DNA from: Octopus vulgaris | Taxonomy: Eukaryota | DNA length: 64,000 bases | NCBI GenBank assembly: GCA_951406725.2 | Contig: OX597818.1 | Span: 115,878,001 to 115,942,000 of the forward strand | Direction of reading: 5' to 3' | In this document: positions 13,379 to 55,888 of the stretch, in pieces | Layout of the letters: the number at the start of each line of letters is the position of its first letter | How positions within the stretch are numbered: the first letter of the stretch is position 1 | Position numbers and translations under genes: made by a program | Notes under the pieces: model-generated | Told to the model about the DNA's origin: nothing | The model's database searches: none | Seen by the model: the letters and a program-made list of their open reading frames with translations, nothing else

Positions 13379-14082
13379 GGCTCTCGCAACCAAAAAGTGA
13401 ACAAATGTATTTTTCTTTGGTATAGAATTCCTCGTGTCATTTCGATCGATTCGGAAGTGAAGAATGACAGAACATATTTCGCTGTAAGTATTTTGGAAAA
13501 TGAGAACCTAATGATTTCCCCTTTAATTTGTATTTACTTTTTAAAATCACTTCATACTGAAGGATTACCAAAAGTCGATTAAACTGAATTCATTTACCAA
13601 ACACATGGACAAAATATATTTCCTCTGTTGTCTATATCTTAACTAGCTTTAATGAACAAATTTTCAACAATCGGAATATTAGAATGAAAAAGTTCATAAA
13701 AAAAAACAAAAGCGGGAATATATCCTGATTCCGTCCACATGTTACGAGATAAATACAAAACTCTTAATTAGATAGAGGAAGACGGAAGGATAATTATTAA
13801 ATAAATAAAACACCAATAGGATTTACATAACAGCACAAATTTCTCTCTGCAAGAAAATTACAGAATGTCATAAGATAATTGGAAAATAAATTCAGTAGCA
13901 TTCTTTAAATGAAGAGGAATTTTAAACGAAAACATTGAAACCGGAACCAAGTTTGAATTGTCAGTTCAGTGTTGAGTTATCTCTCTTACATTGATTAATG
14001 GCAAAGAGGGGAAACGAATCCACGAAATTCGACTACAATAGGTCTCTTTCGCATTTATTTTTCTTAAATATAAATATAATAG

Positions 14083-15405
14083 CTAAGGATCATCAGGAAT
14101 GGAAAGAGACTTAAAGTATTGCAAAGCTCTGTAAACACTATTTCCACAAATATTAAAGGTGGGATGTGTGGGTCTCACTTCGTTATCCTCTCCCCCAAGG
14201 ATGTGTAAAGCGAGTTTAGAGCCGTTATGCTGAGCGATAGACAATCCGCTCAGGCAATAACAAGTGTGATAGAAGTCCCGGGATTTCTTAGGTTTGTCAC
14301 GAAGACCGCCACGCATGTGTTGACAACAAGTTAATACATACTCCTGCAAAGCACCAGAATGAAACACCCAGGTGTCCGCAGGAAACCCAAGTTCACCTTG
14401 TTGTTGTAAAGCCGACTGCAAAAGCGCAATGGCACCACCTTGCCAAAACGAGTAACAACCATCAACCAGTTTTTCAGTGCGACCTTGAAAACCTCCTTCG
14501 AATTTCATTTGTCTGTTTGCAATCCAACGAAGCAACAATTTAGTATCACACAAATGGAGTTTGCCTAAAAGACACAAGGCAGCGAGTCCGCAAAAAGTGT
14601 AACCACCGTGGGCCTCCAAACCTGGGCGCCCGGCAAACCCACCTTCGTATGTCTGGCAACTTGCCACCCATTCTGGTGACAGGTAAAACAACTTTGAACA
14701 ACTGGAAATAATATTGCTGAGTACAGCAGCACTAGCAACGAGGTAGATTCCACGGACATCGGTTTCGCCGTTTTCATGGAGAGTAAAAGAACCATCAGGT
14801 TGTTTCATACGAAAGAAGAACGACAACAATTTCGGTCTGTCTATCACATCAAAACTGTGTTTAGTGCCTAGAATACATAAAGCGTTAACTGCAGCGTAAG
14901 TAGAAGCGAGGTGAGGCTCTTGTCCTGGTCCTCCGCCGAAACCTCCATTCGGATGTTGACAGCGATTTAAGAAATTTGCAATATTAGTCTCTAATTCCGA
15001 AGAAAGCGGTAGGGCGTCTAAGAGGTCAAGGCTGTGAAGAATCCAGTAACATATCCAAGTTCGGCTGGCATCGAGGCATTGGTAAGAGATTCCTAACTCT
15101 CGAAGACCTGCTGTCAGGAATTCAATGTGCCGTTTCCTTTTTAAAGACGGAGGAGCAGAGGAATTGGTCGGTCTGTCGATGAAGATTTCCTCAGAACCAG
15201 AATCGTCTTTGCTACTTTTTTCCATTTCGCCGAAGTATTTCGCTCGAGCAGCCAAGAACATTTTTTCAATTTCTTTCTCAACGTTTCCCTGCTCGTACGA
15301 AGTATCGGTGGGTATTCCATCGTTTTTCAGGCGGCTCGCCGCAAGGACACCGTCTTCAATATTCTCTGCATAGCGAGGAACAAGATGTTTAATTTCTGCC
15401 GCCAT
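14083..15405 (-). CDS. FNTB: Protein farnesyltransferase subunit beta, intronless, 440 aa from ATG 15405
   Basis: Prenyltransferase repeats. SRTWICYW (W102/W106 equivalents), EAHGGYTFC, FQGRTEKLVDGCYSFW (Zn ligands D297/C299), LRDKP (D352) and DFYHTCY (Y361/H362) identify FTase rather than GGTase. AATAAA at 14054-14059(-). Confidence 0.96.
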   Translation of the reverse strand: MAAEIKHLVPRYAENIEDGVLAASRLKNDGIPTDTSYEQGNVEKEIEKMFLAARAKYFGEMEKSSKDDSGSEEIFIDRPTNSSAPPSLKRKRHIEFLTAGLRELGISYQCLDASRTWICYWILHSLDLLDALPLSSELETNIANFLNRCQHPNGGFGGGPGQEPHLASTYAAVNALCILGTKHSFDVIDRPKLLSFFFRMKQPDGSFTLHENGETDVRGIYLVASAAVLSNIISSCSKLFYLSPEWVASCQTYEGGFAGRPGLEAHGGYTFCGLAALCLLGKLHLCDTKLLLRWIANRQMKFEGGFQGRTEKLVDGCYSFWQGGAIALLQSALQQQGELGFPADTWVFHSGALQEYVLTCCQHMRGGLRDKPKKSRDFYHTCYCLSGLSIAQHNGSKLALHILGGEDNEVRPTHPTFNICGNSVYRALQYFKSLSIPDDP

Positions 15406-15429
15406 GCTGTTTATCACGTGCTGCCATCA

Positions 15430-15443
15430 GCGACATCTAGCGG
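15430..15443. promoter_or_regulatory. CTCF-like motif next to FNTB start
   Basis: GCGACATCTAGCGG resembles the CTCF core GCGCC(A/C)(C/T)CTAG(C/T)GG. Confidence 0.35.
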
Positions 15444-15641
15444 AAACACTGCTTAAATAATAATTACCAGCATCAAGAGGAGTTAACTCCCGTTTATTAG
15501 GCAACCGTAGACTAAGGGAAGGGAAGCTTTTTAGTGCGAAGGGTAAAAATTTCCAAAGAATAGGGTCCGCGGGCGAATCACAAGTTCTAACTCTGTGTAA
15601 ATCTTGTATATATATATTTAGATCTATGTATAATTCGATAT

Positions 15642-15925
15642 GTGGAGGCGCAATGGCCCAGTGGTTAGGGCAGCGGACTCGCGGTTTCGATTCCCGGGCA
15701 TTGTGAATGTGTATTGAACGAAAACATCTAAAGCTCCACTAAGCTCCGGCAGGGGTTGGTGGCGATCCCTGCTATACTCTTTCGCCATAACTTTCTCTGA
15801 CTTTTTCTTCTGTTGGCCTGCTCGCTTAGCCAGCGGGGTGGCGTCATTTGAAGGTTAAAAACAATGTGAAGCGCATTGTGACCAGCGATGTGTAGCAACA
15901 TCTGATAGCCTGGTCGGTCACGGTG
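15642..15925 (+). mobile_element. tRNA-derived SINE with 12-bp TSD
   Basis: TGGCCCAGTGGTTAGGGC A box, GGTTTCGATTCCC B box. ATAATTCGATAT is duplicated at 15630-15641 and 15926-15937. Related head at ~45863. Confidence 0.75.
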
Positions 15926-17173
15926 ATAATTCGATATACATTAATAAAGATAAATATAACACATTAGATTAACGTGTAACATCTTCAGTAACGCCGCCAC
16001 TGAATTTAGGACGTTTATATTACTTATAAGGCGGCGAGCTGGCAGAACCGTTAGCACGCCGGGCGAAATACGTAGCCGAATTTCATCTGTCGTTACGTTC
16101 TGAGTTCAAATTCCGCCGAGGTCGACTTTACCTTTCATCCTTTCGGGGTCGATAAATTAAGTTACACACTGGGGTCGATGTAGTCGACTTATTCCCTTTG
16201 TCTGTCCTTGTTTGTCCCCTCTGTGTTTAGCCCCTTGTGGGTAGTAAAGAAATATATATATTACTTACGAGTAATTCTGTATTTTCAGCTAGAGTGTAGT
16301 ACATACGAATATACCAGCCCGTGGCGCAATAAAATGTAGGCTCGCGGATGTTACCCCACCCCACCCGATTTAGACAATCCCCTATTATGAAACTAAGAAC
16401 TTCCTGCGTCACTAAGCATTCGCTGATAAAACTGGCAATTAAATCATGCATTGTAATACATTTGTGGGAAGTAGGTTAGTCAAATACATTGACCTCAGTG
16501 CTTAACTGGTACTTTGTTTTGTCGACTCCGAAAGAATCATATTGGTAAAGTTGACTGCGGCGTGATTTGACCTCAGAACGTAAACAGTTAGACGAAATAC
16601 CTATTTCTTTATTACCCACAAGGGGCTAAACACAGAGGGGACAAACAAGGACAGACAGACGGGAACAAACGGATCAAGTCGATTATATCGACCCCATTGC
16701 GTAACTGGTACTTATTTAATCGACCCCGAAAGAGTGAAAGGCAAAGTCGACCTCGGCGGATTTTGAACTCAGAACGTAACGGCAGACGAAATGCCGCTTA
16801 GCATTTTATCCGAAGCGCTGACGATTCTGATACTGCGTCAGCAAAAATTAGCAAATAATAATAAAGTTGTATGATGACCGTAAGACTTTCGCCTCGGCCG
16901 AATGCACCCGCCCCAAACTATTTATCCCACAAACTTACCAGCTAAATGAAATCACTAGCTATTTAGATTATAAATAAAATTTTTACCTAACAAATACACA
17001 GAACACTAACGTATAATTTTTATGCATGTGCACATACGCAAACGTTTCTTTTATTTATACTTTCAATATCTCTTTCAACTATATTTAAGCCATTCTACTT
17101 TTTCCAGAAATAATTCAAAAACTGTAATTTCAGGGGAGATAATCTAGGTTCCCCATCAAATGCGTTGACTACT

Positions 17174-17187
17174 GCGCCACCTGACGG
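17174..17187. promoter_or_regulatory. CTCF-like motif in FNTB/KAT5 divergent promoter region
   Basis: GCGCCACCTGACGG in otherwise AT-rich DNA. Confidence 0.35.
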
Positions 17188-17385
17188 TCTGTAATAAAAC
17201 GAATTGTTTGAGTTGAATGTCTTTGGTGTTTCTACCTCTTATGAGCTTCAAGGATTTACTTTTAGGTAATAATAACAATAATAATAATGATCTGTGAGAT
17301 ATTTTTATGTCTCTGTTTACTCTATTAATCACCCCTCATGTATTGCAGCTTATATTTTTTATTATATTTGTTATATATATGTATG

Positions 17386-17420
<35 letters not shown>

Positions 17421-18696
17421 TTCTTCTCAAGTTGCATATGGAGGCCTTTAAAAAATTTGTACATTACATCTGATGAATTTATACTAAATGTACCGATTAT
17501 TTCAATTACTTTTTGGCTCTTTATTATTAATTCGTAAATTTTAAATGTACATTAATTAATTAATCAATATTTTTAGACACACAAAGTTACTTTTCTATGT
17601 CGATTTCATGCCTGAAAATTACAATGAAAATCATGGTTTTCCCCTAAAATGCATATGGTAGACTATTTGGATTATAATTTCAATAAAACCGCAAACTGCC
17701 TTTGTGATTACATGTAAACTTTAGATCAGATAATCTCTTAAATATAGAACCCAAAAATAGTTTTTTCTTTCTTTTCAAGTTAATCCGATGTCTAAACTTA
17801 TGTTACATTTAATAACAAACATTGATCTTAAGTTATATAATATTTTTTAATTATAAAGGAAAGGTGCTTTTTCGAGGAGGGCAGTTGTCGATATCAAATA
17901 AGACCGTTAAAGGAAATCGAGTATTCAATATGATCCTCTTTACCGCTGCTGTATTTATGTATGCCTACCACATAGAGGTAGTATTAAAATAATAATAATT
18001 AAAAGGAGAAAAGTATTCGCTCTTAAATATTTGTTAGTTTTTCTAATTGATCAGTAATTTATCTTAAATTTGAAATTTGTTTGGTTGTAGTTTATCATCC
18101 ATAAGTTAATGTAGTCATCGTTTTTTGTGGCCAGCAAAAAGTGCTTCCGATGTTTTTCTTGCTTTCTTTTATTAAATTCCATTTTCAGAAACTCATAAAA
18201 CAAATCTTGTCGGGTTTTTTTTTTTTAATATTTTTTTATACTGCCTACAATTCTGTTGTGTTTAGTGAGAACAGATCGGCGAAGGCAGTGGAGAGCCGGG
18301 ATAAATAAATACTTTCTACCTAATTAGCTCAGTATCGAGTTGGAATATTATCGGAATAGATTCTATCTGGAGTTGGTTTATATACGTTAGGCGATCTTTC
18401 GAAGTTTGTACGTATAATGCGGTGAACAGAGTGAAAAAAAAAAATCGCATCGCTTGAAAGTGAAAGCAAAGCACAATTTACCATCGTGTCTGTGTATCTG
18501 TGTTGTAGACGTAGCTAGGTGCGTGTATGTATGAGAATGTTCGTAAAGTTGGTTTTATTACCCTTTATTTTCTATCTGTGCAGTGTAAACATTTTATTCT
18601 TAATTTAATTAAAATATAACAAATCAATCGTATCGATTGCTGATCATTTTCCCGATTATTAACGATTATGTTTTTTGTTTCTCTTTATATTTTCAG

Positions 18697-18743
18697 TGCA
18701 GTTTGTTTTACCGTTTTATATGTACAATATCCGAAAGTTCGAC
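18697..18743 (+). other. KAT5: Candidate non-coding 5'-UTR exon of KAT5
   Basis: Strong acceptor (ttttttgtttctctttatattttcag) and donor (GAC|gtaagt) in non-repetitive DNA. The KAT5 coding exon has an unpaired acceptor at 32728. Confidence 0.45.
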
Positions 18744-19124
18744 GTAAGTTCAATTAACGACTTTTTATACTTCTTGTTTTTGTTGTTGTTTCTGTTTTTG
18801 TGAGGGATAACCATAATATATAGGCATTCGTTTCTTGACACTTTCCCTTGTTAACAATTTTGACCAAACAGAATCCAGCGGAATTTCAACGGAGTTGCTC
18901 TTTTCTTAGTGATTCTTGGTAAAATGAATTATCTTTTACTTGTTTCAGTCATTGGATTGCGGCCGTGCTGGGGCACCGCGTTCAATGATTTAGTCGAACA
19001 ACTCAACCCCTTGTACTTATTTTATATCGTTATCTTTTTGCCAAACCGCTAAGTTACGGAGGGGCGACATAAGCAAACCAACACCGGTTTCCAAGTGATG
19101 GTAGTGTGTCGCACGCACGCTTAC

Positions 19125-19312
19125 AGTACTACTTGAGAACAGTGGTCCCGGTGCGCGCACTCGCGTAATCGCGCATCTGCGCTAGCTAGTCGTGACTGGT
19201 CGATCCTACAACGACTACCTAGCAAAGTAAATAAAACACAAAAACACAACGTAAGGATCGACTAGTCATGACTAGGTAGCGCGCACCGTGACCGCTGTTC
19301 TCAAGCAGTACC
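19125..19312. mobile_element. Palindromic MULE-like MITE inserted in a family-2 SINE
   Basis: TIRs GTACTaCTTGAGAACAGtGGTCcCGGTGCGCGC and reverse complement, plus inner inverted arms. 9-bp TSD CACGCTTAC at 19116-19124 and 19313-19321. Confidence 0.75.
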
Positions 19313-20712
19313 CACGCTTACATCCGCCACCACACACACACACACACAATGGGCTTCTTTTTGTTTCTGTTCACGAAATCCATTCACAAGGCTTCGGTTG
19401 GCTTGGAGCTATAGCAGAAGACTCGGGACCATTGTATTTAAGTAGTACCAAAGACTCTAATCCAAGGTGCCTCTCAATGGGACCGAACCTGCAATCTTGT
19501 GATCACAAAACAAACTTCTTACCACACTGCCACACCTCTGCTTAAAAATATATATCTCTTCCATGGCAAGGAATCCTATCCCAATCTCTCAAGGATCGAA
19601 GTTGTCCGTAAATGTTTTTAAGTCATCTCTGAAAGATGCTGTATAAAATAACTTGCATACGATCTAAAGAAAACCAGGTTGGGTTTTGTTTTTAATTAAG
19701 ACTGCTTTTATTAACGCAGGCAGTTGAAAGGGATCCAATTAAAAAGCGACTGTCTTGATGTTTCAGCCTTTATAAAATGAAAGTAAATCAGTGAAAGCCA
19801 CGTTGTATAGTAATGCCATATTAGTCGTTCATGCATTTTTTTTTCTTTCTAGTATCGGTTGCATGAACCCATTAGTGTTGTATTGTTTTACAGCTGGATG
19901 TCCCTTCGTTAAGCTTCTTTTTTTTTACCCCATATGTCTTTGGAAGTACAAGGCGGCAAGCTGGCAGAAACGTTAGCACGCCGGGCGAAATGCGTAGCTG
20001 TATTTCATCTGCCGCTATGTTCTGAGTTCAAATTCCACCGAGGTCGACTTTGCCTTTCATCCTTTCGGGGTCGATTAAATAAGTACCAATTACGCACTGG
20101 GATCGATATAATCGACTTAATCCGTTTGTCCCCTTTGTGGGTAGTAAAGAAATAGGTATTTTGTCTGCCGTTACGTTCTGAGTTCAAATTCCGCCGAGGT
20201 CAACTTTGCCTTTCATCCTTTCGGGGTCAATAAATTAAGTACCAGTTGCGTACTGGAGTCGATCTAATCGACTGGCCCTCTCCCACAAAATTTCAGGTCA
20301 TACAATAGAAAAGGATTTGTTAGCAGGAGATATGACTTTGTTGCTTGTAGCTTTGCTATTTTCAGAGGAGCGTAAATGTAGACAAGCACATGAGCACGTG
20401 CACATACACACACACACACACATACTAGGTTTGCTTCCCATCCATGTTGCTTTTCGATTCAGTCCCACTCTGTGGCCCTTCAGGCAAGTGTCTTCTACTA
20501 TAGCCCCAGGCCACATCATCATCATCATCATCGTTTAACGTCCGCTTTCCATGTTGGTGTGTTTACATCCCTGTAACCTAGCAGTTCGGTAAAAAAAGAC
20601 TGAGAGAACAAGTACCAGGTTTACAAAGAATAACTCCTGGAGTTGATTAGTTCAACTAAAGGCGGTGCTCCAGCATGGCAGCAGTCAAATGACTGAAACA
20701 AGTAAAAAAGTA

Positions 20713-20762
<50 letters not shown>

Positions 20763-23032
20763 CACATATATATATATAAAATAGCATCTAGCATAGCAAA
20801 AGAGAGAAAGAAATCGTTCACAAAGAATAAATATGAATCACATGAAAAAGTAAATAAATGCTGGCACCATATGAAAAGCATCCAGTACACTCTGTGAATG
20901 GATGGCATTAGGAAGGGCATCCATCCATAGAAACAATTGGAATATGATACAGCCCTTGGATTCCTCAGATCTTCTCAAACCAGCCAGCCAGCCATGCTTT
21001 AATGGAACATGGGTATTAAAGGACAGTAGTGATGTCTTCATCGTCCTACATGGTTCCTTTCAAAATCTGTTCTGTTTGTGGGTAAGAGTACCCTTATCCA
21101 AACATTCTAAATACTATGTACAATGGGGTAAGTTAGAGACCTAAGTACAAGCTAAATAATTCCTTAGCCTCCTCTCTCTGTAGACTGAGTTGAAACCATC
21201 TAACCAAGATGATTTTCAGGATCAGCAAAAATAAATGGTTGTGATTGATGTATTAGCTGTAGATCCAGTTGATTTGTACTCATCATCATCGTTTAACGTC
21301 CGTTTTCCATGCTACCATGGGTTGGACAGCTCGACCAGGGTCTGGGAAGCCAGGAGGCTGCACCAGGCTCCAGTCTGATCTGGCAGTTTCTACAGCTGGA
21401 TGCCCTTCCTAACGCCAACCACTCCGTGAGTGTAGTGGGTGCTTTTTACGTGCCACCAGCACAGGTATCACAACTACAATTTCCATTTGATATTTATTTT
21501 GATGTTGATGTACTTGACTCAATAGGTCTCCTCAAGCACAACAGGTCATGTGCCACCGGCACAGAAGCCAGTCAAGGCGGTGCTGACATCGGCCACGTTC
21601 GGATGGTACTTTTTACGTGCCGCCGGCACAGGTATCGTAACTACAATTTCCATTTGATATTTGTGGTTTTATAAAAGTCTGAGAAATGAGTCTTATGTTT
21701 TGTGTTCCAGTGACGATCAATTGTTTAGTCTCCTGTTCGCTGTAATCAACCGTTAATCTTTTCCTTTCTGTTTTTTGCAGTACATTGTCCATGATGTCTT
21801 TCCTTTTTAAAGACATTAGAATCTGATTTGAGGGAGATTTGGTTGCTGCTTCTTGCAGGTCATACAACCATGTAGATGCTCCCTCGTTTGCTTTAAGATG
21901 AATTAGAAATAGCTATGCCTGCTTCTACATCCTTGTTTCAAACCTCAGCAGAGACAGCTTTGCCTTTCATCCCTTCAACATCAGCAAGTAAGTAACAGTT
22001 ATGTCCTAAGTTTACTTTATTCAGCACATTGTACTAATCCTGTATCATCATCATCACCATCATCGTTTAACATCCGTTTTCCATGCTAGCATGGGTTGGA
22101 CGGTTCAATCGGGGTCTGGGAAGTCAGGAGGCTGCACAAGGCTCCAGTCTGATCTGGCAGTGTTTCTACAGCTTGATGCCCTTCCTAACACCAACCATTC
22201 TGTGAATGTAGTGAGTGCTTTTTACATGCCACCGGCACAGGTGCCAGGGGAGGCTGGTAACGGTCACGATCGGTTGGTGCTTTTTACGTGCTACTGGCAC
22301 AGGTATCACAACTACAATTTCCATTTGATTTTTTGATGTTGATGTACTTGACACAATAGGCCTCTATTTTTATGGTGTGTAAAGTTCTGCTGAACCACCA
22401 ATTAATGTGTGTGCACATAGGCCCATAAGACTACCTTTCACATTTACACACACACACTTACACATAAGACTGTTAGTGGGGAAGGCAAATGGCACTGGTG
22501 CATTGAACTGGTGGTATTTTTGAAAAGCAAAAGACATTGAAAGTCTACTACTAGGCATAGGAGTGGCTGTATGGTAAGTAGCTCAAGGCTTGAAAGTATC
22601 TGAGAAAGACTGTTTTGGATAGGGGTATACTGACTAGGATATAGTTTATGTGAGGGCTTTGAGCCATAATTGCCATTATTAAACTAGTTTTTGCAATCTG
22701 GAAATTTGATTGAAGATTTTAATTTAGATCTTTAAAACAGGAAATTTATATCATAGAACCAGGGTTTGTATGAAAAGGGTCAAATTACACTGCTTTCATT
22801 TTTGGATAAAGGGCCAATGATGTGGATTATGGAAGAGTCAGAAAATGGGAAATATGGCATTTGTATGTTATGATTATTTTATTTATTGCAATTTGTAGAC
22901 AGTGATGTCATTGATGACAGATCTGTAAAGGGACCAGTTAAGGGGTCACTGCCTTTCTGATTGTTATGGTGACAAGGCATTGTCTAAGTTGAGGGAACAA
23001 ATATCATGTATGGTACACATACACACAAGCAA

Positions 23033-23203
23033 TGGTCAGTATATAAAGTACTCAGATTTTATTGTCTGAACTACATTGGAAGCCTGAAGTACTTTCAGGC
23101 AGATGGTGTTTGTATATATATACTTGACCTGACAGTAAAGTTCTCCAGGTACATAGTGCTCAGGTTAACTTGTGTATCTGTGTCTCCAGAGCCTGGTATA
23201 AAT
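23033..23203 (+). ncRNA. Box H/ACA snoRNA candidate, copy 1 (28S helix-69 guide, SNORA23-like)
   Basis: Branched 5' hairpin, H box ACAGTA (23132-23137), 3' hairpin with pocket CATAGT/CTCC complementary to 28S GGAG-U-A-ACUAUG, and ATA box 14 nt after the upper stem. Confidence 0.75.
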
Positions 23204-24215
23204 TCTTTAAAATAATATGTGTAGCTAGTGCTCTCTCTCTCACCCTCTCTCCCCGCCCCCTTTCCCTCCACCCCCTTTCTTTTGCTCTCTCTGGGTATAT
23301 ATATATATATATATATTTATGGTGGCACATAAAGAACACCTTTCAAGTAGCAAAGTGGCTGAGTTCCTTTCGAGTGTTGGGCCTCACGGGAGCAATGACT
23401 GAGACCTTTAGCATTATGTCGTGCTTGAGAAGAAGACCCATCAAGCCAATCAGAATTGCAGTTGTGGCAGATACCAGTGTCACGCAAATTGGTATCCATG
23501 CCAGTGGCACGTAAAAACACCCTGGTGTCATGCATATGGCACGTAAAAGCACCCATTAGACTCTTAGAGTTTTTGGCGTTGAGGAAGGACATCAAGCCAT
23601 AGAAAGCGATGCCAAATCAGACTTGAGGATGGTGCAGCTTACCAGCTTACCGGTCAAACCATCCAACCCATGCCAGCATGGACAATGGATGTTAAATGAT
23701 GATGATGATGACATGTGCGCACACACACACACACAGAGGAACTGGTGTGGTTGTTCACGAGAAGTTTGCTTCCTATTCACATGGTCTCAACTTCTGTTCC
23801 ACTGCATGACCCCTTAGGGAAAATGTCTTCTACTATAGCCCCTGACTATGATCTAGTTTATGTGAGGGGTTTGAACCCTAATTTCTACAATGCTAGTAAC
23901 TTAACTGCCATTATTAAACTAGTTTTTGCAACCTGGAATTTTGATTGAAGATTTTAATTTAGATCTTTAAAACAGGAAATTTATATTAATGTGGATTAAA
24001 GAAGAGTCAGAAAATGGGGAAATATGGCATTTGTATGTTCTGATTATTTTCTTTATTGCGCTTGTATACAGTGATGTCATTGATGACAGATCTGTAAATG
24101 GACCAGTTAAGCTGTCACTGCCTTTCTGATTGTTATGGTGACAAGGCATTGCGTAAGTTCAGGGAACAAATATCATGTATGGTACATACACACACACACA
24201 TTCCTACACAAGTAA

Positions 24216-24386
24216 TGGTCAGTATATAAAGTACTCAGATTTTATTGTCTGAAATACATTGGAAGCCTGAAGTACTTTCAGGCAGATAGTGTTTGTATAT
24301 ATATACTTGACCTGACAGTAAAGTTCTCCAGGTACATAGTGCTCAGGTTAACTTATGTATCTGTGTCTCCAGAGCCTGGTATAAAG
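24216..24386 (+). ncRNA. Box H/ACA snoRNA candidate, copy 2
   Basis: 171 nt. Boxes and pocket identical to copy 1. Confidence 0.72.
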
Positions 24387-24469
24387 TCTTTAAAATAATA
24401 TGTGTAGCTAGTGCTTTCTCTCTCTCTCTCTCCTCTCCCTCTCTCTCTCTCTGGGTATATATATATATA

Positions 24470-25178
24470 AGAGACCAAAGTGTATGTATGCTGCTATATG
24501 TATATAAAAAAGAATACAAAAAAGGGACAAGAAAATCATCCAGACATATGATACGAAAAAAGGACAAGAAAAACAAGGACGGGTCATTTGGAGTTTTCTT
24601 TCGTCAGTCGAGTTCCAGATTATCTTTGCAGATGTGGCTGGTTATACTCGGGACTGCTCTAATCTGACCAGCCCGAAAGGAAATCTAAGCTAAGAGCACT
24701 AGATTCCTTGGAAGAAAGCAGTGAATGTATATGAAAACAAGGATGGGGGAAAAAAAAACCAGAGAAATGGTACACAAATACAAGTGCAAAGAACAGGACA
24801 TTAACAACAGGTGTCTTTCGACTAAGGACAAATTAAAACATAAGAGATGACAGGCATGGGAAGGAATATAGATATTGCACGGGTGGTAGTCAAACCAAGA
24901 AAGAAAGGTCAGGTTTGACTGAACACTGGTCACATGGAAGGAGAGGAGAGAGGTAGGGGCAGATGGAGAGAAGAATTAGGGAGTGACAAGAAAAAAAAAA
25001 AAGGGACAGAGTAAAGCGAAAGAGGAGGGAAGGTGAAAATGAAGAGACGGCTAGAAAATTTGAGAGAGGGGGAACGAAAGAACAAAGTAAGTGTGAAGGG
25101 GCTGATAGAAAGAATGAAAGGAGCAGTCCCAAGTATAACCAGCCAAAACTGCAAAGATAATCTGGAACTCGACTGAGT
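24470..25178. mobile_element. Penelope-like remnant with ~55-bp inverted repeat (module D, second copy ~26892-27540)
   Basis: tcagtcgagttccagattatctttgcag..ggctggttatact.gggactgctc at ~24605 is inverted at ~25120-25178. Confidence 0.5.
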
Positions 25179-25337
25179 TCTTTATTGCAACTTGTAGACA
25201 GTGATGTCATTGATGACAGGTCTGTAAAGGGACCAGTTAATAGGTCACTGCCTTTCTGATTTTTATGGCAACAAGATATTGTCTAAGTTGAGGGAACAAA
25301 TATCATGTATGGTACACACACACATGCACACAAGTAA

Positions 25338-25508
25338 TGGTCAGTATATAAAGTACTCAGATTTTATTGTCTGAACTACATTGGAAGCCTGAAGTACTTT
25401 CAGGCAGATGGTGTTTGTATATATATACTTGACCTGACAGTAAAGTTCTCCAGGTACATAGTGCTCAGATTAACTTGTGTATCTGTGTCTCCAGAGCCTG
25501 GTATAAAT
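25338..25508 (+). ncRNA. Box H/ACA snoRNA candidate, copy 3
   Basis: 171 nt. A G>A change converts a G-U pair to A-U in the 3' upper stem. Confidence 0.72.
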
Positions 25509-26656
25509 TCTTTAAAATAATATGTGCAGCTAGTGCTTTCTCTCTCCCTCCCCCCTCTTTCTTTCCCTCCCCCTCTCTCTTCCTCTCTTTATCTCTGGGT
25601 ATATATGTATATATATTTATTGAACCTCACAAAGGCAATGACTTGTGACTGAGACCTCTGGCAATGTGCTGTGCTTGAGAGGGCCCGACAAGCCAAGTGG
25701 ACCCAGCTGGTGGCACATAAAGAACACCTTTCAAGTAGCAAAGTGGCTGAGTTCCTTTTAGGCATTGGGCCTCACGGAAGCAATGACTGAACCTTTGGCA
25801 TTATGTCATGCTTGAGAAGATCCATCAAGCCAAGCAAAGTTGCACTTGTCGCAGATACCGGTGTCAGGCAAATTGACACCGATGTGGGTGGCACATAAAA
25901 ACACCCTGTCATGCAAATAGCACATAAAAGCCCCATTACACTCTTGGAGTGGTTGGCGTTTAGGAAGGGCATGCAGCCGTAGAAAACGATGCAAAATCAG
26001 ACTTGAGGATGGTGCAGCTTACCAGCCCAGTTAAGCCATCCAACCCATGCCAGCATGGACAATGGATATTAAATGATGATGATGATGATGACATGAACAC
26101 ACACATACAGAGGCACAGGTGTGGTTGTTCATAAGAGGTTTGCTTCCTATTCACGTGGTCTCAAATTCTGTTCCACTGCATGGCCCCTTAGGGCAAATGT
26201 CTTCTACTGTAGCCCCCGACTATGATCTAGTTTATGTGAGGGGTTTGAACCCTAATTGCCACAATGCTAGTAACTTAACTACCATTATTAAATTAGTTTT
26301 TGCAACCTGGAATTTTGATTGAAGATTTTAATTTAGATCTTTAAAACAGGAAATTTATATCATAGAACCAGGATTGGTATGAATGGGTCAAATTACATTG
26401 CTTTCATTTTTGGATAAAGGGCCAATGCTGTGGATTATGGAAGAGTCAGAAAATGGGAAATATGGCATTTGTATGTTATGATTATTTTCTTTATTGCAAC
26501 TTGTAGACAGTGATGTCATTGATGATAGATCTGTAAAGGGACCAGTTAAGGGAACACTGCCTTTCTGATTGTTATGGTGACAAGGCATTGTCTAAGTTGA
26601 GGGAACAAATATCATGTATGGTACACACACACACACACACAAACACACAGAAGCAA

Positions 26657-26827
26657 TGGTCAGTATATAAAGTACTCAGATTTTATTGTCTGAACTACAT
26701 TGGAAGCCTGAAGTACTTTCAGGCAGATAGTGTTTGTATATATATACTTGACCTGACAGTAAAGTTCTCCAGGTACATAGTGCTCAGGTTAACTTATGTA
26801 TCTGTGTCTCCAGAGCCTGGTATAAAG
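26657..26827 (+). ncRNA. Box H/ACA snoRNA candidate, copy 4
   Basis: 171 nt. Variant lies in the apical loop. Confidence 0.72.
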
Positions 26828-27690
26828 TCTTTTTAAAGTAATATGTGTAGCGAGTGCCCTCTCTCTCTCTCTCTGGGTATATATATATATAAGAGACCAA
26901 GGTGTACGTACGGTGCTATATGTATATAAAAAAGAATACAAAAAAGGGACAATAAAACAAGGACAGGTCATTTGGAGTTTTCTTTCATAAGTTGAATCCA
27001 GATTATCTTTGCAGTTTCGGCTGGTTATACTTGGGACTATTCTAATCTGGCCAGCCCCAAAGGAAGTCTAAGCTAAGAGCACTAGATTCCTAGGTAGAAA
27101 GCGGTGAATGTATACGAATACAAGGATGGGGGAAAAAAATGGAGAAATGTTACACAAATACAAATGCAAACAACAGGTGTCTTTTGACTAAGGAAGAATT
27201 AAATTATGACATAAGAGATGACAGGCATGGGAAGGGATATAGATATTGCATGGGTGGTAGTCAAACCAAGAAAGGTCAGGCTTTGCTGAACACTGGTCAC
27301 ATGGAAGGAGAGGAGAGAGGTAGAGGCAGATGGATAGAAGAATTAGGGAGTGACAAGAAAAAAAGAAAAGGGACAAAGTGAAGTGAAAGAGGAGGGAAGG
27401 TGAAAATGATGAGAAGGCTAGGAAATGTGAGAGAGGGAGAGCAAAAGAACGATGTGTGAAGGGGCTGATTGAAAGAATGAAAGGAGCAGTCCCAAGTATA
27501 ACCAGCCAAAACTGCAAAGATAATCTGGAACTTGACTGAGTTCTTTATTGCAACTTGTAGACAGTGATGTGATTGATGACAGGTCTGTAAAGGGACCAGT
27601 TAATGGGTCACTGCCTTTTTGATTGTTATGGCAACAAGATATTGTCTAAGTTGATGGAACAAATATCATGTATGGTACACACACACACAA

Positions 27691-27861
27691 TGGTCAGTAT
27701 ATAAAGTACTCAGATTTTATTGTCTGAACTACATTGGAAGCCGGAAGTACTTTCAGGCAGATAGTGTTTGTATATATATACTTGACCTGACAGTAAAGTT
27801 CTCCAGGTACATAGTGCTCAGGTTAACTTGTGTATCTGTGTCTCCAGAGCCTGGTATAAAT
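27691..27861 (+). ncRNA. Box H/ACA snoRNA candidate, copy 5
   Basis: 171 nt. One mismatch in an inserted 5' stem. Confidence 0.7.
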
Positions 27862-27887
27862 TCTATAATATAATGTGTAGCTTTCGC

Positions 27888-27927
<40 letters not shown>

Positions 27928-29015
27928 CTTTCTTTCACTCTCTCTGGGTATATATGTATATATAATTCTATTTCTTGAACCGCACAGAGGCAATGACTTG
28001 TGACCAAGACGTTTGTCTATGTGCTGTGCTTGAGAGGGCCCGACAAGCCAAGTGGACTCATGCTGGTGGCACATAAAGGACACATTTCAAGTAGCAAAGT
28101 GGCTGAGTTTCTTTCGGGCTTTGGGCCTTAGGGAAGCAATGACTGAGACCTTTAGCATTATGTCATGCTTGAGAAGATCCATCAAGCCAAGCAAAGTCGC
28201 AGTTGTGGTAGATAACAGTGTCGGGCAAATTGATACCCATACCAGTGGCACGTAAAAGTACTTTGGTGTCATGCAAATGGCACGTAAAAGCACCCATTAC
28301 AGTCTTGGAGTGGTTGGCGTTTAGGAAGGGCATCCAGCCATAGACAACGATGGCAAATCAGACTCGAGTCTGGTGCAGCTTACCAGCTTACCTGTCAAAC
28401 CATCCAACCCATGTCAGCATGGACGATGGATGTTAAATGATGATGATGACTTGTGGGCACACACACACACACACACACACAGAGGCACTGGTGTAGTTGT
28501 TCATAAGAGGTTTGCTTCCTATTCACATGGTCTCAAATTCTGTTCCACTGCATGGCCCCTTAGGGCAAATGTCTTCTACTGTAGCCCCCGACTATGATCT
28601 AGTTTATGTGAGGGCTTTGAACCCTAATTGCTACAATGCTGGTAACTTAATTGCCATTTATAAACTAGTTTTTGCAACCTGGAATTTTGATTGAAGATTT
28701 TAATTTAGATCTTTAAAACACGAAATTTATATCATAGGACCAGGGTTAGTATGAAAAGGGTCAAATTACATTGCTTTCATTTTTGGATAAAGTGCCAATG
28801 CTATGGATTATGGAAGAGTCAGAAAATGGGGAATACGGCATTTGTATGTTATGATTATTTTCTTTATTTCAACTTGTACACAGTGATATCATTGATCACA
28901 GATCTGTAAAGGGACCAGTTAAGGGGTCTCTACCTCTCTGAATGTTATGGCGACAAGATAGTGTCTAAGTTGAGGAAGCAAATATAATGTATAGTACACA
29001 CACACACACAAGCAA

Positions 29016-29186
29016 TGGTCAGTATATAAAGTACTCAGATTTTATTGTCTGAACTACATTGGAAGCCTGAAGTATTTTCAGGCAGATAGTGTTTGTATAT
29101 ATATACTTGACCTGACAGTAAAGTTCTCCAGGTACATAGTGCTCAGGTTAACTTGTGTATCTGTGTCTCCAGAGCCTGGTATAAAT
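29016..29186 (+). ncRNA. Box H/ACA snoRNA candidate, copy 6
   Basis: 171 nt. Only a loop variant, although its upstream flank is strongly diverged. Confidence 0.72.
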
Positions 29187-29213
29187 TCTTTAAAATAATA
29201 TGTGTAGCTAGTG

Positions 29214-29249
<36 letters not shown>

Positions 29250-30292
29250 CTGGGTATATATATATATATGTATATTTATATCTATTGAATCTCACAGAAG
29301 CAATGACATGTAACCAAGACCTTTGGCAATGTGGTGTGCTTGAGAGGGCCCGACAAGCCTAGTGGACCCATGCTGGTGACACATAAAGAACTCCTTTCGA
29401 GTGGCATAGTGGCTTTGAGCATTAGGCCTCTCAGAAGCAATGACTGAGACCTTTGACATTATGTCATGCTTGAGAAAACCCATCAAGCCAAGCAAAATTG
29501 CAGTTGTCACAGATACCAGTGTCAGACAAATTGGCACCCTTGCCAGTGGCACATAAAAACACCCTGGGGTCATGCAAATAGCACATAAAAGCACCCATTA
29601 TACTTTTGGAGTGGTTTGGCATTTAGGAAGGGCATCCAGCCATAGAAAACAATAGAAAATCAGACTTGAGTCTGGTGCAGCTTACCAGCCAAACCATCCA
29701 ACCCATGCCAGCATGGACAATGGATATTAAATGATGACGATGATACACACACACACACACAGAGGCACAGGTGTGGTTGTTCACAAGAAGTTTGCTTCCT
29801 ATTCACATGGTTTCAAATTCTGTTCCATTGCATGGTACCTTAGGGTAAATGTCTTCTACTGTAGCCCCCGACTATGATCTAGTTTATGTGAGGGCTTTGA
29901 ACCCTAATTGCCACAATGCTGGTAACTTAATTGCCATTATTAAACTAGTTTTTGCAACCTGGAATTTTGATTGAAGATTTTAATTTAGATCTTTAAAACA
30001 GGAAATTTATATCATAGAACCAGGGTTTGTATTAAAAGGGTCAAATTACGTTGCTTTCATTTTTGGATAAAGGGCCAATGCTGTGGATTATGGAAGAGTC
30101 AGAAAATGGGAAAATATGGCATTTGTATGTTATGATTATTTTCTTTATTGCAATTTGTAAACAGTGATATCATTGATGACAGATCTGTAAAGGGACCAGT
30201 TAAGGGGACACTGCCTTTCTGATTGTTATAGTGACAAGGCATTGTCTAAGTTGTGGGAACAAATATTATGTATGGTACACACACACACACAC

Positions 30293-30463
30293 TGGTCAGT
30301 GTATAAAGTACTCAGATTTTATTGTCTGAACTACATTGGAAGCCTGAAGTACTTTCAGGCAGATAGTGTTTGTATATATATACTTGACCTGACAGTAAAG
30401 TTCTCCAGGTACATAGTGCTCAGGTTAACTCGTGTATCTGTGTCTCCAGAGCCTGGTATAAAC
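30293..30463 (+). ncRNA. Box H/ACA snoRNA candidate, copy 7
   Basis: 171 nt. A-U to G-U change in the 5' stem and an apical-loop variant. Confidence 0.72.
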
Positions 30464-32672: not shown

Positions 32673-32901
32673 TAAATATTCCTTCTTATTTCTGTCTCTT
32701 AAATATTCCTTTTTACTTCTCTTTTCAGATTGAAATGTTTTTGTGAGACCTGTTACCATTTCAATAACACCAGTTATAACTTCCTCTTTTTCGAGAAAGA
32801 CAAAGATCCCATCAACCAACAGAGCCTTTTTTTTCAATCATTGTGTTATAAAATACGTGGTTAGGCACAACAAGGGAGATCATAGCTCCACTATACAGTA
32901 A

Positions 32902-34431
<1,530 letters not shown>

Positions 34432-47100: not shown

Positions 47101-50100
47101 CTCTGCAGTGAATGCAACGAATATTTAAATTTGTGAAAAACTTGCAGCTCAAATATTCAATAACCATCAGAAATCGAAATTACAGGAAATTTCTTGGAAC
47201 TTGAATTTATAAAAAAAATTTCCAGACGGTCAAGCCTTTAATAACTGCTTTCTTTTAGTAATTGTTACGTACCTATTTAATAAGCAGCTTTCTCCATTAT
47301 AATATAGATATATAAACACATAAAACAGCAAAGAAAAAATGTAAAAAAGACGTTAATCAAATTTGCAAGAGAGAACATACATACCTGGTCTGACTCGAAG
47401 AGTCGCACTGGCTAAAGCTACTTGAATAATCTGTCCAAGTCTTTCAATAGAGCAGAGGCAAGTCTCTTCCTCTGGTGATAAACCGTAACGTTTGCAAATG
47501 TCCATAAGTTCCTGAGATGTCTTTTTGATGTCAGCCGGTGTGAAAGGGTGCCCAGTGGCATTCGGTACATTGGGGCCAAGCAGTCCACTGACCGCAGTCC
47601 GGCCGGTACCGGTCGCTGCTGCATTGTTGGCGAGCAGGCTTTGAAGGACCCCCAAGTGGAGCCGCGAGAAGAGCTGCTGCTGCTGCTGGAGCCGATTGTT
47701 ATTGTTGCAGGTATTGGCCCCGATGTCCCCCCAGGAGTTTTTGTTGTTGTCAGTGGCCTTGAGACATAGCACGGGTCCCTTGACGCACCAGTTGGTGAGT
47801 CCAGGAAACGGTGAGCAGCCGTGCGAGGCGAACATCCGATAGCTACTGCCAGAGGATGCTGGACGCATAGACACCGAACACAGTCTGCTATCCGAGGAGA
47901 TCCAGTTGGTGACATGTTCCACAAGTTTCTCTGGCGGCATACCATCTAAAGCTGGAACAAAAGAAACAAACACCATTTTATACAACAATGTAACAGGTAA
48001 GTCATCATCAACTAGAATCAATATACTACTTACTAGCAGAAATACCTGTCGTTGACTGGGTTCAGAAAGAGTCTTCAAAAATTATACCCTGATTTATGAA
48101 AGGTACTACTTTGATATTATTGAATGTTTTGTAGCGGAATATCCGCAAACTCTTATTGCCAGGCTTCGGCCCCAAAAGTTATATTTTACAAATGGGTCCG
48201 CTGATAGTCAGTCTCTTCAGCTCTTTCTCTTTTCCTATGCTGAGATTGCTTAGGTAGTTCAAATCATTTTTTTTTTTTCCGGAGACATTGTAGTAGGGTG
48301 AATTAATCTATATGAAAGACACGGGACTTAACTCATGTCAGCAAACTTATGGATTTCACCAACGTGAAAAATTGGTAAAAGTTATGGATGAAAATCGATT
48401 TTTACCACTATCCGGAGGTGCCTTGGGAAAAATAAGTTGACACAAGCACAGCCACGGTCATGACCAATGTTCTCCTAAAATTGGAGCAGCATGTGTGCTA
48501 ATTTGTGGATGTGCATAAAGTACATTCACGTACACACACACATCCTGCCTTTTATAGATATAGATTAATTGCTTGTAGGGTCACCATATTTCATTCTGCA
48601 ACCATAATATATATTACCAAGTATATTAAAGACTGTGAGAAAGAGCAAAACTGGCTCGAAAACATAGGACTGTAAGTAAAATTAATGAACCGCTGCTGCA
48701 GTACCTTCCTGGAAGTCCTCACATCTATAAGTCAGTTGATACAACCCCAGATCCAGAAGTGGTGGTAAATTATTCTACAGAATTCCTCAATTCTGAGGAT
48801 CTCATAATTAATGTAAAACATTTTTAATGTAAAAAAAATCTATAATAGCTCTAAAACCTTTAGCATTTATACCAGCCAAATCCAACAAAAATATTCTGTT
48901 TTATGTTCTAATTGGCCACATCTGGCCTCTTACACCTACCCCACAACACCATTCTAAAATTAACACTCAGCCCACCCAACCTCTAACAGAAGGTCAGTCC
49001 TGATGCATCTCCAACATCTATTTCTCTTTCTCTCTCACTGTCTCTCTATCTTCCTCTCTAATTATCTCTCCCCTCTTTTCCTACTGGGGTAGCCAAGTAT
49101 GTCCTCCTCACTAAGACACCTATCTCTATCCCTCTATTATATTCCAACCTCTCACCTGGCACTAGGATACTTCCTGTGGCTCTGCTCCCTCTCCCAGCTG
49201 AGAGATCTTTACATCACAAGTCACTTGGTGACCCTGCTGGTATCAATGCCATGTAAAAAGCACCAGTGCTGATGTCGCATAAAAAGCACCCTGTATACTC
49301 CGTAAAGTGGTTGGCATTAGGAAGGGCATCAGCTGTAGAAACCATGCGAAAATGGATAATTGGAGCCAGGTACAGCTCTCTGGCTTGCAAGCTCCTGTCA
49401 AACTGTTCAAACCAAGCTAGCATGGAAGATGAATGTTAAATGATGATATCAAAATCTTGCAGCTATGAAATAACACATGATTAATTCAAAACATCATCAT
49501 CATCATTTAACATCCACTTTCCATGCTAGCATGGGTTGGAAAATTGACTGAAGGCTGCCGAACCAGATGGCTGCACCAGGCTTCAATCTTGATCTGGCAG
49601 AGTTTCTACAGCTGGATGCCCTTCCTAACGCCAACCACTCTGAGAGTGTAGTGGGTGCTTTTACATTCCAACCGGCACGGGGCCAATCAGGTGGTACTGG
49701 CAACGACCTCGCTCGAATCTTTTACACATGCCACTGGCACAGGTGCCAGTAAGGCGATGCTGGTAATGATCACGCTCAAATAGTGTCTTTTCCATGCCAC
49801 CAGCACGAAGGCCAAATAGCCGCTCTGGCAATGATCACGCTTGTATGGTGCTCTTAATACCCTACTAGCACGGGGCTTGAGTGCCAGTAAGGTGACGCTG
49901 GTAACAATCATGCTCGAATGGTGTCTTTTATGTGCCACTGGCATGGAGACAGATTGATCCAAATGTTAAACAGTTAAGAAAGATAAATGCTACGAAATAC
50001 CGACACTTTCCTTGACCCCAATCTTCATATAAAACAAAAGAGACAAAACTCATTCAACTTACTGTTACATGGGAATAGAGCGGTTACCGCTGCAATGAAG

Positions 50101-54090: not shown

Positions 54091-55888
54091 TTTAACTCCT
54101 GAAAGAAACAAGAAGAATATTATTATTTTTCTTTTCTCTTTACAGATTCCAACACCGATTTCTTCATCTAAAAATATCTGAGATGGAATAGTTAAGAGTA
54201 ATATTTTAAAACTAATTATTCACCTCGTTTTTAAAGATGTAAACAATTTTAATTAGCACAAGAGCACTACATTAGTATTCGTGTAAGTTGACAAGCTGGC
54301 AGAATCGTTAGCACGCCGGGCGAAATGCTTAGCGGTATTTCGTCTGCGTTACGTTGTGAGTTCAAATTCCGCCGAGGTCGACTTTGCCTTTCATCCTTTC
54401 GGGGTCGATAAATTAAGTACCAGTTACGCACTGGGGTCGATGTAATCGACTTAATACCTATGTCTGTCCTTGTTTGTCCCCTCTGTGTTTAGCCCCTTGT
54501 GGGTAATAAAGAAATAGGTATTTTGTCTGCTGCTACATTCTGAGTTCAAATTTCGACATGGTCAACTTTGCCTTTCATTCTTTCCATCTAACCCATGCTA
54601 GCATGGAAAACGGACATTAAATGATGATGATGATGATGATGATAAATGGAGATGTAAGGTATTAATAAATGCACATTATTAACCTTGCTGTGAAAACGTG
54701 GATAAATACTTTTGGTGGCACGTAAAAAGCACCCACTACACTTGCGGAGTGGTTGGCGTTAGGAAGGGCATCCAGCCGTAGAAACACTGCCAGATCAGAC
54801 TGGGCCTGATGCAGCCTTCTGGCTTCACAGACTCCAGTTGAACCGTCCAACCCATGCTAGCATGGAAAACGGACACTAAATGATGATGATGATGATGATG
54901 ATGATTAAGGCAGTGAGCCAGCAGAATCGTTAACAAACCCTGCCAGTGTTGGGGGCCATGTAAAAAGCATCCAGTCCACACTATGAAGTGGTTGGCATTT
55001 GGAACGGCATCCAGCTGTAAAACCATGCCAAAACAGACACAGAACAATTAAGTTACAGGAACAAAAACACCAGCATCAGTTGTGAAGTGATGGTGGAGGG
55101 ACAAACACAGACACACACAAATATATATATATATATCTTTATATATATATAAAACTGAGAATGTGTGTCTGTCTGTCTGCCTGTGTGTTTCCCTAAAACT
55201 TGAGAACTACATAACCAATTTCATTCAAATTTTACACATGCCTTACTTAGGGTCCGGGGAGTGTCATCGGCAAAAAAAATGTTCAACTTCTTGCCTAGAG
55301 CGAGCCCATAGCAATATCATATCTCCTCCACTATTTCAGTATTACGTGTCAAAAGTGAAACAAAAACGTTTCTGTATTTTATGTCAGATACTTTCACTTT
55401 AACAATAAAAATAATAATAACAATTGAATTATATGTAGTAAGTAATAATTAAAATCAAACTAAAGTATAATATAATCGTAACATAACAAAAGTAAAAATA
55501 GCAATTGGTATAAAATTGCATCAATGATTTGAACTTGAATAAGTGGTTTCACATGAATGGGAATAAATTAAAAATAAAATTAGCATGCAGAAATGGAATA
55601 GTCCAGATGGATAATAGAAAATTAAATTAAAGAAAATGTAGAGAAAAAAGATTTGAACACATGGAGGAAATCAATTTATTGCGTTATTAGTAAGTTGATA
55701 TATATTTTTGCTCTCATACTACTTATCTCTGTTATTATATACTGTTGGTCTACCTTTTTTTGTCCATTGTTGTCTAACGGACGAAGTCAACCTTCGCGCG
55801 AAGACTTCGCGTTGGTGTTCCCCCCTCAGTGGGGGAAAACTACAATCAATTTAGATTACCAAAGGCTTGTTAAAGCCATTTGTTCAAA

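What the first reader, a model, noticed from the sequence alone, without database searches (positions are those of the whole stretch)
23033..30463. Seven-copy tandem cluster of an H/ACA snoRNA candidate guiding 28S helix 69
Seen: a core of exactly 171 nt recurs seven times with only about 1-3 substitutions per copy, and even the internal (TA)n keeps its length, while flanks are visibly more diverged. It folds as a branched hairpin, H box ACAGTA, a second hairpin (lower stem CCAGGT/GCCTGG, upper stem GCTCAGGT/ATCTGTGT) and ATA+3 nt. The pocket CAUAGU/CUCC gives 6+4 bp around the U in the conserved eukaryotic 28S sequence GGGAG-U-A-ACUAUG (E. coli 1911 equivalent), 14 nt from the terminal box. 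Most variants fall in loops or swap G-U for A-U pairs. Knowledge (recalled): human SNORA23/ACA23 guides this site and is also unusually long. Inference: a lineage-specific amplification of a functional snoRNA under purifying selection.
Basis: partly seen in the sequence, partly recalled or inferred. Interest (0 to 1): 0.9.

Follow-up and report, generated by a model that had tools for sequence, protein, structure and literature searches.

The report
Sevenfold octopus snoRNA array upstream KAT5
An octopus genome carries seven tightly conserved tandem copies of a small RNA gene that likely guides one chemical mark on the ribosome's helix 69 and is predicted to be cut out of an intron of the KAT5 gene; it is an uncatalogued example of a well-known kind of RNA.

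Summary
Seven 171-nt cores differ at 8 of 170 columns, against 37 of 138 in the adjacent flank (p 6e-8). They have H/ACA anatomy: H box ACAGUA, two stem domains, AUA plus 3 nt. The 3' pocket pairs 6+4 with the first U of helix 69 in this genome's own 28S, with the same pocket letters and 14-nt spacing as the Rfam SNORA23 consensus.

An eighth copy (89%) lies sense in an intron of a KHDRBS/Sam68-like gene on C7; 16 of its 17 substitutions spare the structure. A broken copy lies on C11. The array likely sits in 5'-UTR intron(s) of the KAT5/Tip60 gene.

Limits: SNORA23 membership is not shown (the Rfam model gives no match, and the branched 5' domain differs and has no target). The pocket match alone is weak (19 of 300 random pockets score as well). 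An 18S rival site exists. No mature RNA was shown.

Verdict: a real, uncatalogued H/ACA snoRNA that works like the 3' half of SNORA23, amplified and under selection. Moderate interest.

The parts
23033..23203 (+). snoRNA copy 1 (171 nt)
24216..24386 (+). snoRNA copy 2
25338..25508 (+). snoRNA copy 3
26657..26827 (+). snoRNA copy 4
27691..27861 (+). snoRNA copy 5 (carries the only within-array change that breaks a pair, column 53)
29016..29186 (+). snoRNA copy 6
30293..30463 (+). snoRNA copy 7
23034..23129 (+). copy 1: branched 5' domain (long basal stem, three-way junction, two hairpins); no rRNA or U2 target shared by the array and C7 copies
23132..23137 (+). copy 1: H box ACAGUA (ANANNA), invariant in 8 of 8 intact copies
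23145..23196 (+). copy 1: 3' hairpin; lower stem 23145-23150/23191-23196, upper stem 23158-23165/23176-23183
23152..23157 (+). copy 1: 5' strand of the pseudouridylation pocket (CAUAGU)
23184..23187 (+). copy 1: 3' strand of the pocket (CUCC), 14 nt before the terminal box
23198..23200 (+). copy 1: terminal AUA box, 3 nt before the inferred 3' end
   Evidence: AUA as an ACA-box variant in PMC6984369 and PMC7991803 passages
22880..23018 (+). co-duplicated upstream flank (about 10% diverged, found only at these 7 places); has a polypyrimidine-AG, a possible repeated mini-exon, unverified
32706..32728 (+). strongest + strand 3' splice site between 15.4 and 33 kb (rank 1 of 198), 221 nt before the KAT5 start codon; inferred end of the host intron
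32950..34431 (+). KAT5/Tip60 coding sequence, no intron in the CDS; inferred host gene
14001..20500 (.). CpG-rich stretch (o/e 0.71-1.46), inferred promoter region shared by FNTB (-) and the + strand host; candidate donor after 18518 (rank 12 of 1110)

Best explanation
The repeat is a seven-copy array of a box H/ACA small nucleolar RNA gene, conserved about six times more tightly than its flanks, that is likely excised from 5'-UTR intron(s) of the KAT5 pre-mRNA and is predicted to guide pseudouridylation of the first U of 28S helix 69. Shown: copy number, selective conservation, boxes, fold, pocket complementarity to the organism's own 28S, and a paralogue in a KHDRBS intron. Inferred steps: (1) a copy of the KHDRBS-intron snoRNA, or of their common ancestor, moved into the KAT5 upstream region long enough ago that no upstream flank aligns; (2) the roughly 1.0-1.3 kb unit was amplified by unequal crossing-over, partly as a 2.3-2.4 kb dimer; (3) transcription from the CpG-rich FNTB/KAT5 promoter region runs through the array, and splicing and trimming release 171-nt RNAs; (4) dyskerin, NOP10, NHP2 and GAR1 bind the H and AUA boxes; (5) the CAUAGU/CUCC pocket holds GGAG-U-A-ACUAUG and the U (human 3737 equivalent) is isomerised. 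The branched 5' domain likely has no rRNA target and serves as a scaffold or protein-binding domain.
For: Core 8/170 vs flank 37/138 variable, with the drop ending right at AUA+3. C7 paralogue at 89%, homology starting at the same base, in a 1450-nt GT-AG intron, sense to a KHDRBS gene. Its 17 substitutions include one compensatory pair and only one damaging change (expected 6.5-8.1, P 0.0001-0.003). 381 of 383 cells paired (99.5%). The C11 copy, broken by a repeat insertion in the pocket, has broken pairs and an 8-nt TA expansion, showing what relaxed copies look like. In the register set by the upper stem, the helix-69 U is the best site and the only perfect 6+4 site in the own 28S and 18S. 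Pocket letters and 14-nt spacing equal the Rfam SNORA23 consensus, listed as guiding 28S-U3737. Host: same-strand KAT5 with the top-ranked acceptor before its ATG, three RefSeq accessions for one identical O. bimaculoides KAT5 protein (read as UTR variants, inference), and the lowest CpG o/e of the window over the array (0.16-0.35).
Against: No Rfam H/ACA model matches. The pocket is predicted mostly closed in the free RNA (P(open) 0.0002-0.02). A score of 10 is reached by 19 of 300 random pockets in the fixed register and by 150 of 300 in loose registers. An 18S site scores higher (5+7 pairs, -16.0 vs -12.9 kcal/mol) at 13-nt spacing. Covariation rests on one pair and is not significant (129 of 500 shuffles reach it). 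A review gives 15-16 nt as the usual eukaryotic spacing; my count gives 14 for both this RNA and the SNORA23 consensus, so the counting convention may differ. The host transcript is inferred from splice signals and CpG content only; donors in the repeat units are weak (rank 133 or worse of 1110). No homologue outside this genome and its very close relatives was obtained.
Confidence: 0.7

Rival explanations
1. The RNA is an H/ACA guide, but its main or second target is the U at position 488 of the modelled 18S region (CUCUGGA-U-A-ACUGU), reached by shifting the pocket one base.
For: Top score of the register-free scan for both the array copy and the C7 copy (11.5 vs 10). More stable model duplex. 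The 3' pocket letters beyond CUCC are invariant in 8 of 8 copies.
Against: Spacing to the box is 13 nt, shorter than the reported range. It needs a wobble and invades the top pair of the lower stem. 45 of 300 random pockets reach 11.5 in loose registers. The Xenopus/human table lists no guide under '18S-U300', my recalled human equivalent. The helix-69 register equals that of SNORA23.
Confidence: 0.12
2. Only the KHDRBS-intron copy works. The seven tandem copies are silent passengers kept alike by recent duplication or by gene conversion bounded by the flanking microsatellites.
For: No mature RNA from the array was shown. Array hairpins are predicted to close the pocket at least as firmly as the C7 copy. 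Within-array structure sparing is marginal. Variable-length (CA)n and (CT)n tracts bracket the core.
Against: Spacers differ by 7.5-12.6%, so the duplication is not recent. The 30 nt between AUA+3 and the (CT)n tract lie inside any such conversion tract yet vary at 15 of 28 columns. The array type differs from C7 by 18 changes, including a compensatory pair, so it is not converted from C7 and evolved under structural constraint. The C11 copy shows how a silent copy decays.
Confidence: 0.12
3. The core is some other structured element (microRNA precursor, editing substrate, splicing element, telomerase-like H/ACA domain or small mobile element), and the boxes and pocket are coincidence.
For: No Rfam snoRNA match. 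The branched 5' domain is unusual for a guide and has no target.
Against: Only 9 matches in the genome search (a lower bound). Conservation ends at AUA+3, and the C7 homology starts at the base of the 5' stem. H box, spacing and pocket equal those of a known guide. No telomere-template word lies within 1.5 kb upstream of C7 or 600 nt upstream of copy 1. The hairpins are branched or carry 7-nt loops, unlike pre-miRNAs (recalled).
Confidence: 0.06

Closest known systems
SNORA23 / ACA23 (Rfam RF00319)
   Same: 3' pocket CAUAGU/CUCC, 14 nt to the terminal box, H box ANAGUA, unusual length (171 vs 184-189 nt), target equal to human 28S-U3737; multi-copy in Xenopus.
   Different: The covariance model does not score it. 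The 5' domain is a three-way junction without a pocket, not a linear guide hairpin, and no second target equivalent to U4331 is kept across copies. The terminal box is AUA. Hosts are KHDRBS and likely KAT5, not IPO7 (human host recalled, not tested).
SNORA74/U19 and yeast snR191
   Same: Long H/ACA guides of helix 69 (about 200 nt); a branched 5' part is recalled for U19.
   Different: They guide the U at +4 and +6 (3741, 3743). Neither site is among the top 8 hits of either hairpin, and RF00090 finds nothing in this genome (a search without a positive control).
Duplicated or retroposed intronic H/ACA snoRNAs; tandem snoRNA clusters such as SNORD116
   Same: Copies spread by retroposition into other introns or by tandem duplication (PMC1802619 and PMC6984369 passages).
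   Different: Here seven copies of one H/ACA guide lie head to tail upstream of a housekeeping gene and all stay within 1-2 changes of each other. The imprinted clusters are C/D orphans (recalled).

Membership tests
box H/ACA snoRNA | hairpin-hinge-hairpin-tail fold | tested here: met
   the 5' part is branched
box H/ACA snoRNA | unpaired H box ANANNA in the hinge | tested here: met
   ACAGUA invariant in 8 of 8 copies, unpaired in the array-copy folds
box H/ACA snoRNA | ACA/AUA box 3 nt before the 3' end | tested here: met
   AUA invariant, conservation ends just after it; AUA accepted; the real 3' end is not mapped
box H/ACA snoRNA | bipartite pocket, at least 8 pairs and at least 3 per side, at fixed distance from the box | tested here: met
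   6+4 on the own 28S at 14 nt; rule; chance level 19 of 300
box H/ACA snoRNA | sense-intronic or own promoter | tested here: inconclusive
   met for the C7 copy; inferred for the array
box H/ACA snoRNA | stable mature RNA bound by dyskerin, nucleolar, modifies its target | not testable with these tools
   only assembled contigs were available
SNORA23 (RF00319) | covariance-model score at or above gathering (45 bits) | tested here: not met
   no match at E<=10; the genome search returned other loci, of which the five fetched were microsatellite-rich
SNORA23 (RF00319) | 3' pocket for 28S-U3737 | tested here: met
   same ten letters and spacing
SNORA23 (RF00319) | linear 5' guide hairpin and second target | tested here: not met
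   branched 5' domain; an 8+3 match of the C7 copy to 28S position 4099 uses a paired stem and is absent from the array copy's top hits
SNORA23 (RF00319) | descent traced through intermediate species or conserved host | not testable with these tools
   no other animal genomes could be read
SNORA74/U19 | pockets for the +4 and +6 U of helix 69 | tested here: not met
scaRNA | CAB box (UGAG, recalled) in a terminal loop and an snRNA target | tested here: not met
   no UGAG in the core (read); best U2 pocket score 6.5; other snRNAs not tested
telomerase RNA H/ACA domain | upstream telomere template | tested here: not met

The most novel reading that the evidence does not exclude
The branched 5' domain, as strictly conserved among the seven copies as the guide hairpin yet without an rRNA target, is a second functional module (a protein-binding or processing domain), and octopods amplified this two-function RNA sevenfold inside KAT5 because its dose matters, coupling helix-69 modification or the second activity to Tip60 transcription.
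Probability: 0.15. Interest if true: 0.65.

Novelty: new member of a known kind. Interest (0 to 1): 0.38.

Why it matters
Cephalopod snoRNAs appear to be annotated mainly by homology to Rfam (41 H/ACA loci in giant squid, PMC6962438 passage), so a guide like this is invisible to standard annotation. If right, it shows that an invertebrate has a guide for the helix-69 position of E. coli 1911 / human 3737, a site not among the four yeast helix-69 pseudouridines named. It predicts that modification in octopus and gives a clean natural series for snoRNA evolution: an intronic paralogue, a selected tandem array and a dead copy. It also predicts a long spliced 5' UTR for octopus KAT5. It is not a new mechanism.

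Tried and rejected
- Rfam scans of the window, of copies 1-2 and of the C7 copy: no family.
- RF00319 over the genome: 7 sub-threshold matches; the 5 fetched were microsatellite-rich. RF00090: nothing, no positive control.
- An exact 28S pattern missed; the rRNA was then found by family search.
- Metagenome pattern scan: 2 matches, both rejected as chance. L025 reads like coding DNA; L026 scored 11.8 bits, E 0.96, with my model.
- Sequencing runs: no RNA holder listed (19 runs are only guessed to be RNA). I laid 4 of 22 runs on copy 1. X1 holds a C7-type contig running 662 nt past the core's 5' end and array-type contigs crossing both core ends; X17 holds one array-type contig with upstream flank. 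No joints at the candidate mini-exon were listed. Bases 22790-22869 have no cover in X1 and X17, which proves nothing. Contigs cannot show mature ends, strand or level, and no silent control stretch was laid.
- Contig ends at 23007-23008 looked like a donor site, but similar ends occur in X21 and X22 and lie 30 nt from a copy variant; rejected as graph breaks.
- A C/D-box reading of the upstream flank (UGAUGA...CUGA) was rejected: it diverges at 9.8% and both boxes are mutated in some copies.
- No antisense stretch of 9 nt or more shared by the array and C7 copies against 28S, the spacer-containing pre-rRNA stretch or U2.
- No further diverged copy in the window or in 50 kb around KHDRBS.
- Earlier findings of this scan: none.
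Full report
OBSERVATION. The repeat finder gives 7 copies at spacings of 1034-1325 nt. The cores begin at 23033, 24216, 25338, 26657, 27691, 29016 and 30293, have no indels and vary at 8 of 170 columns, mean pairwise 1.6%. The 138 ungapped columns upstream that all seven units share vary at 37 columns (9.8%; Fisher p 5.8e-8). The first 30 nt downstream vary at 15 of 28 columns, and seven spacer pairs differ by 7.5-12.6%. The core limits were chosen after seeing the data, which inflates these p values somewhat. The upstream flank is found at these 7 places only, so it is a fair local control and not a mobile element. Spacers fall into two types, after copies 1, 3, 5, 6 and after copies 2, 4, which suggests amplification partly as a dimer (inference). 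Two large public runs of unrecorded kind (X21, X22) hold several array-type variants, which argues against an assembly artefact; contig depth is not a copy number.

ORGANISM AND NEIGHBOURS. Proteins clustering with the window's genes are named KAT5 of Octopus sinensis, O. bimaculoides and Argonauta, and farnesyltransferase beta of O. bimaculoides and Argonauta, so the genome is an octopod. FNTB lies at 14083-15405 (-) and KAT5/Tip60 at 32950-34431 (+), both without an intron in the coding sequence. Other MYST matches in the genome are 28-71% fragments, so this looks like the only KAT5.

STRUCTURE. The + strand folds at -52.7 kcal/mol, better than 200 of 200 shuffles. It has a 5' domain with a long basal stem and a three-way junction, an unpaired ACAGUA, a 3' hairpin, and AUA plus 3 nt. 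AUA is an accepted ACA-box variant (passages of PMC6984369, and PMC7991803). No Rfam family matches. Against the reading: the pocket-open 3' hairpin is 1.8-5.2 kcal/mol above the minimum in the seven copies and 2.3 in the C7 copy; the isolated C7 hairpin folds open. Target pairing of about -13 kcal/mol in a simplified model could pay for opening (inference).

OTHER COPIES. The genome search gave 9 matches: the seven, one on C7 (89%, full length) and one on C11 (84%, 5' part). The C7 copy lies sense in a 1450-nt GT-AG intron, 640 nt from either end, of a gene whose exons encode a STAR-type KH domain and RGG/Tyr-rich segments. A close homologue clusters with a cuttlefish protein named KHDRBS3. 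Against the array's commonest letters it has 17 substitutions and one deletion, 14 of the 18 in the 5' domain. One pair is compensatory (columns 53/65) and one change is damaging, against 6.5-8.1 expected (P 0.0001-0.003). The formal covariation test is not significant (129 of 500), as expected with a single divergent sequence. The C11 copy has a repeat inserted in the pocket, broken pairs and an 8-nt TA expansion, and I read it as a pseudogene. C7 and the array share no alignable upstream flank, so the array founder is likely an old paralogue; the direction of the move is not shown.

TARGET. The own 28S was found by family search and carries GGGAG-U-A-ACUAUG in 4 of 4 copies. In a scan of all U in 28S, 18S and 5.8S, this U is the best site at 14-nt spacing (6+4, all Watson-Crick) and the only perfect 6+4 site in 28S and 18S. 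Alone this is modest: 19 of 300 random pockets reach the score in the fixed register and 150 of 300 in loose registers. The weight comes from the comparison with a known guide. The Rfam SNORA23 consensus has the same ten pocket letters and the same 14 nt to its ACA. The supplementary table of PMC6984369 (rows seen) assigns SNORA23 (189 nt in human, two copies in Xenopus) to 28S-U3737 and U4331, and U19 to U3741 and U3743, which matches the 0, +4, +6 spacing of U in the octopus helix. Any guide for this invariant site must have this pocket, so pocket identity shows shared function, not descent. A rival 18S site pairs 5+7 at 13 nt. The 5' domain has no target common to the array and C7 copies in rRNA or U2; other snRNAs were not tested.

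EXPRESSION ROUTE. Of 198 candidate + strand acceptors between 15.4 and 33 kb, the best ends at 32728, 221 nt before the KAT5 ATG (a simple pyrimidine score). CpG o/e is 0.71-1.46 from 14 to 20.5 kb and 0.16-0.35 over the array, the lowest of the window; I read this as promoter and methylated gene body (recalled invertebrate pattern). One O. bimaculoides KAT5 protein has three RefSeq accessions, compatible with UTR variants. The array therefore likely lies in KAT5 5'-UTR intron(s). Each unit also has a moderate acceptor (ranks 9-47) but weak donors, so a repeated mini-exon that gives each snoRNA its own intron is possible and unproven. The read data did not settle expression (see Tried and rejected).

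MECHANISM AND STATUS. Shown: array, selection, boxes, fold, complementarity, intronic paralogue. Inferred: host transcription, processing, protein binding, modification. It works like the 3' half of SNORA23. It is not filed as SNORA23, because the model score and the 5' hairpin tests failed.

NOVELTY. Searches for octopus + snoRNA, snoRNA + KHDRBS1 + host gene + intron and cephalopod + small nucleolar RNA showed no description of this RNA in the listings I saw (20 of 58, 10 of 16 and 9 of 9 papers). The library lacks most subscription journals, and genome-paper supplements were not read. Duplicated and retroposed H/ACA genes are common (passages of PMC1802619, and PMC6984369). Other papers seen as passages only: PMC11128715, bioRxiv 10.1101/2024.02.02.578723, PMC2653536, PMC6962438. 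Verdict: new member of a known kind, interest 0.38. The unexplained part is why all seven copies keep a target-less branched 5' domain almost unchanged.

Noticed in passing
window 14083-15405 (-) and 32950-34431 (+): FNTB and KAT5/Tip60 both lack introns in their coding sequence and are divergent neighbours; adjacent accession numbers in O. bimaculoides and Argonauta suggest the pair is conserved. Possibly old retrogenes that replaced the parent genes.
   Followed up: partly
L009:1501-2060 (G000:C11): Broken copy split by a roughly 380-nt repeat insertion in the pocket; it mixes array-type and C7-type letters, as an intermediate would.
   Followed up: partly
window 55874-60670 (+): LINE-like element with two long open frames: ORF1 (382 aa, no Pfam match) and ORF2 (1132 aa; endonuclease, reverse transcriptase, zf-RVT).
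   Followed up: no
window 47353-48081 (-), probably extending to about 52340: Exons of an Integrator subunit 15 (INTS15) gene.
   Followed up: no
L010, L019 (G000:C20): Expanded rRNAs: the 18S model spans 2643 nt and the 28S model 4890 nt.
   Followed up: no
G000, many contigs: 48 of 48 scored U2 candidates pass the Rfam cut-off, both dispersed and in tandem runs on C3 and C23.
   Followed up: no
window 23181 and 23197 in runs X21, X22: Variants not in the assembly (core columns 149 and 165) fall on the upper-stem mismatch and the spacer base before AUA, both structure-neutral.
   Followed up: partly
L020-L024: The Rfam SNORA23 model scores up to 38 bits on TA/TG microsatellite hairpins in this genome, a source of false annotations.
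   Followed up: yes
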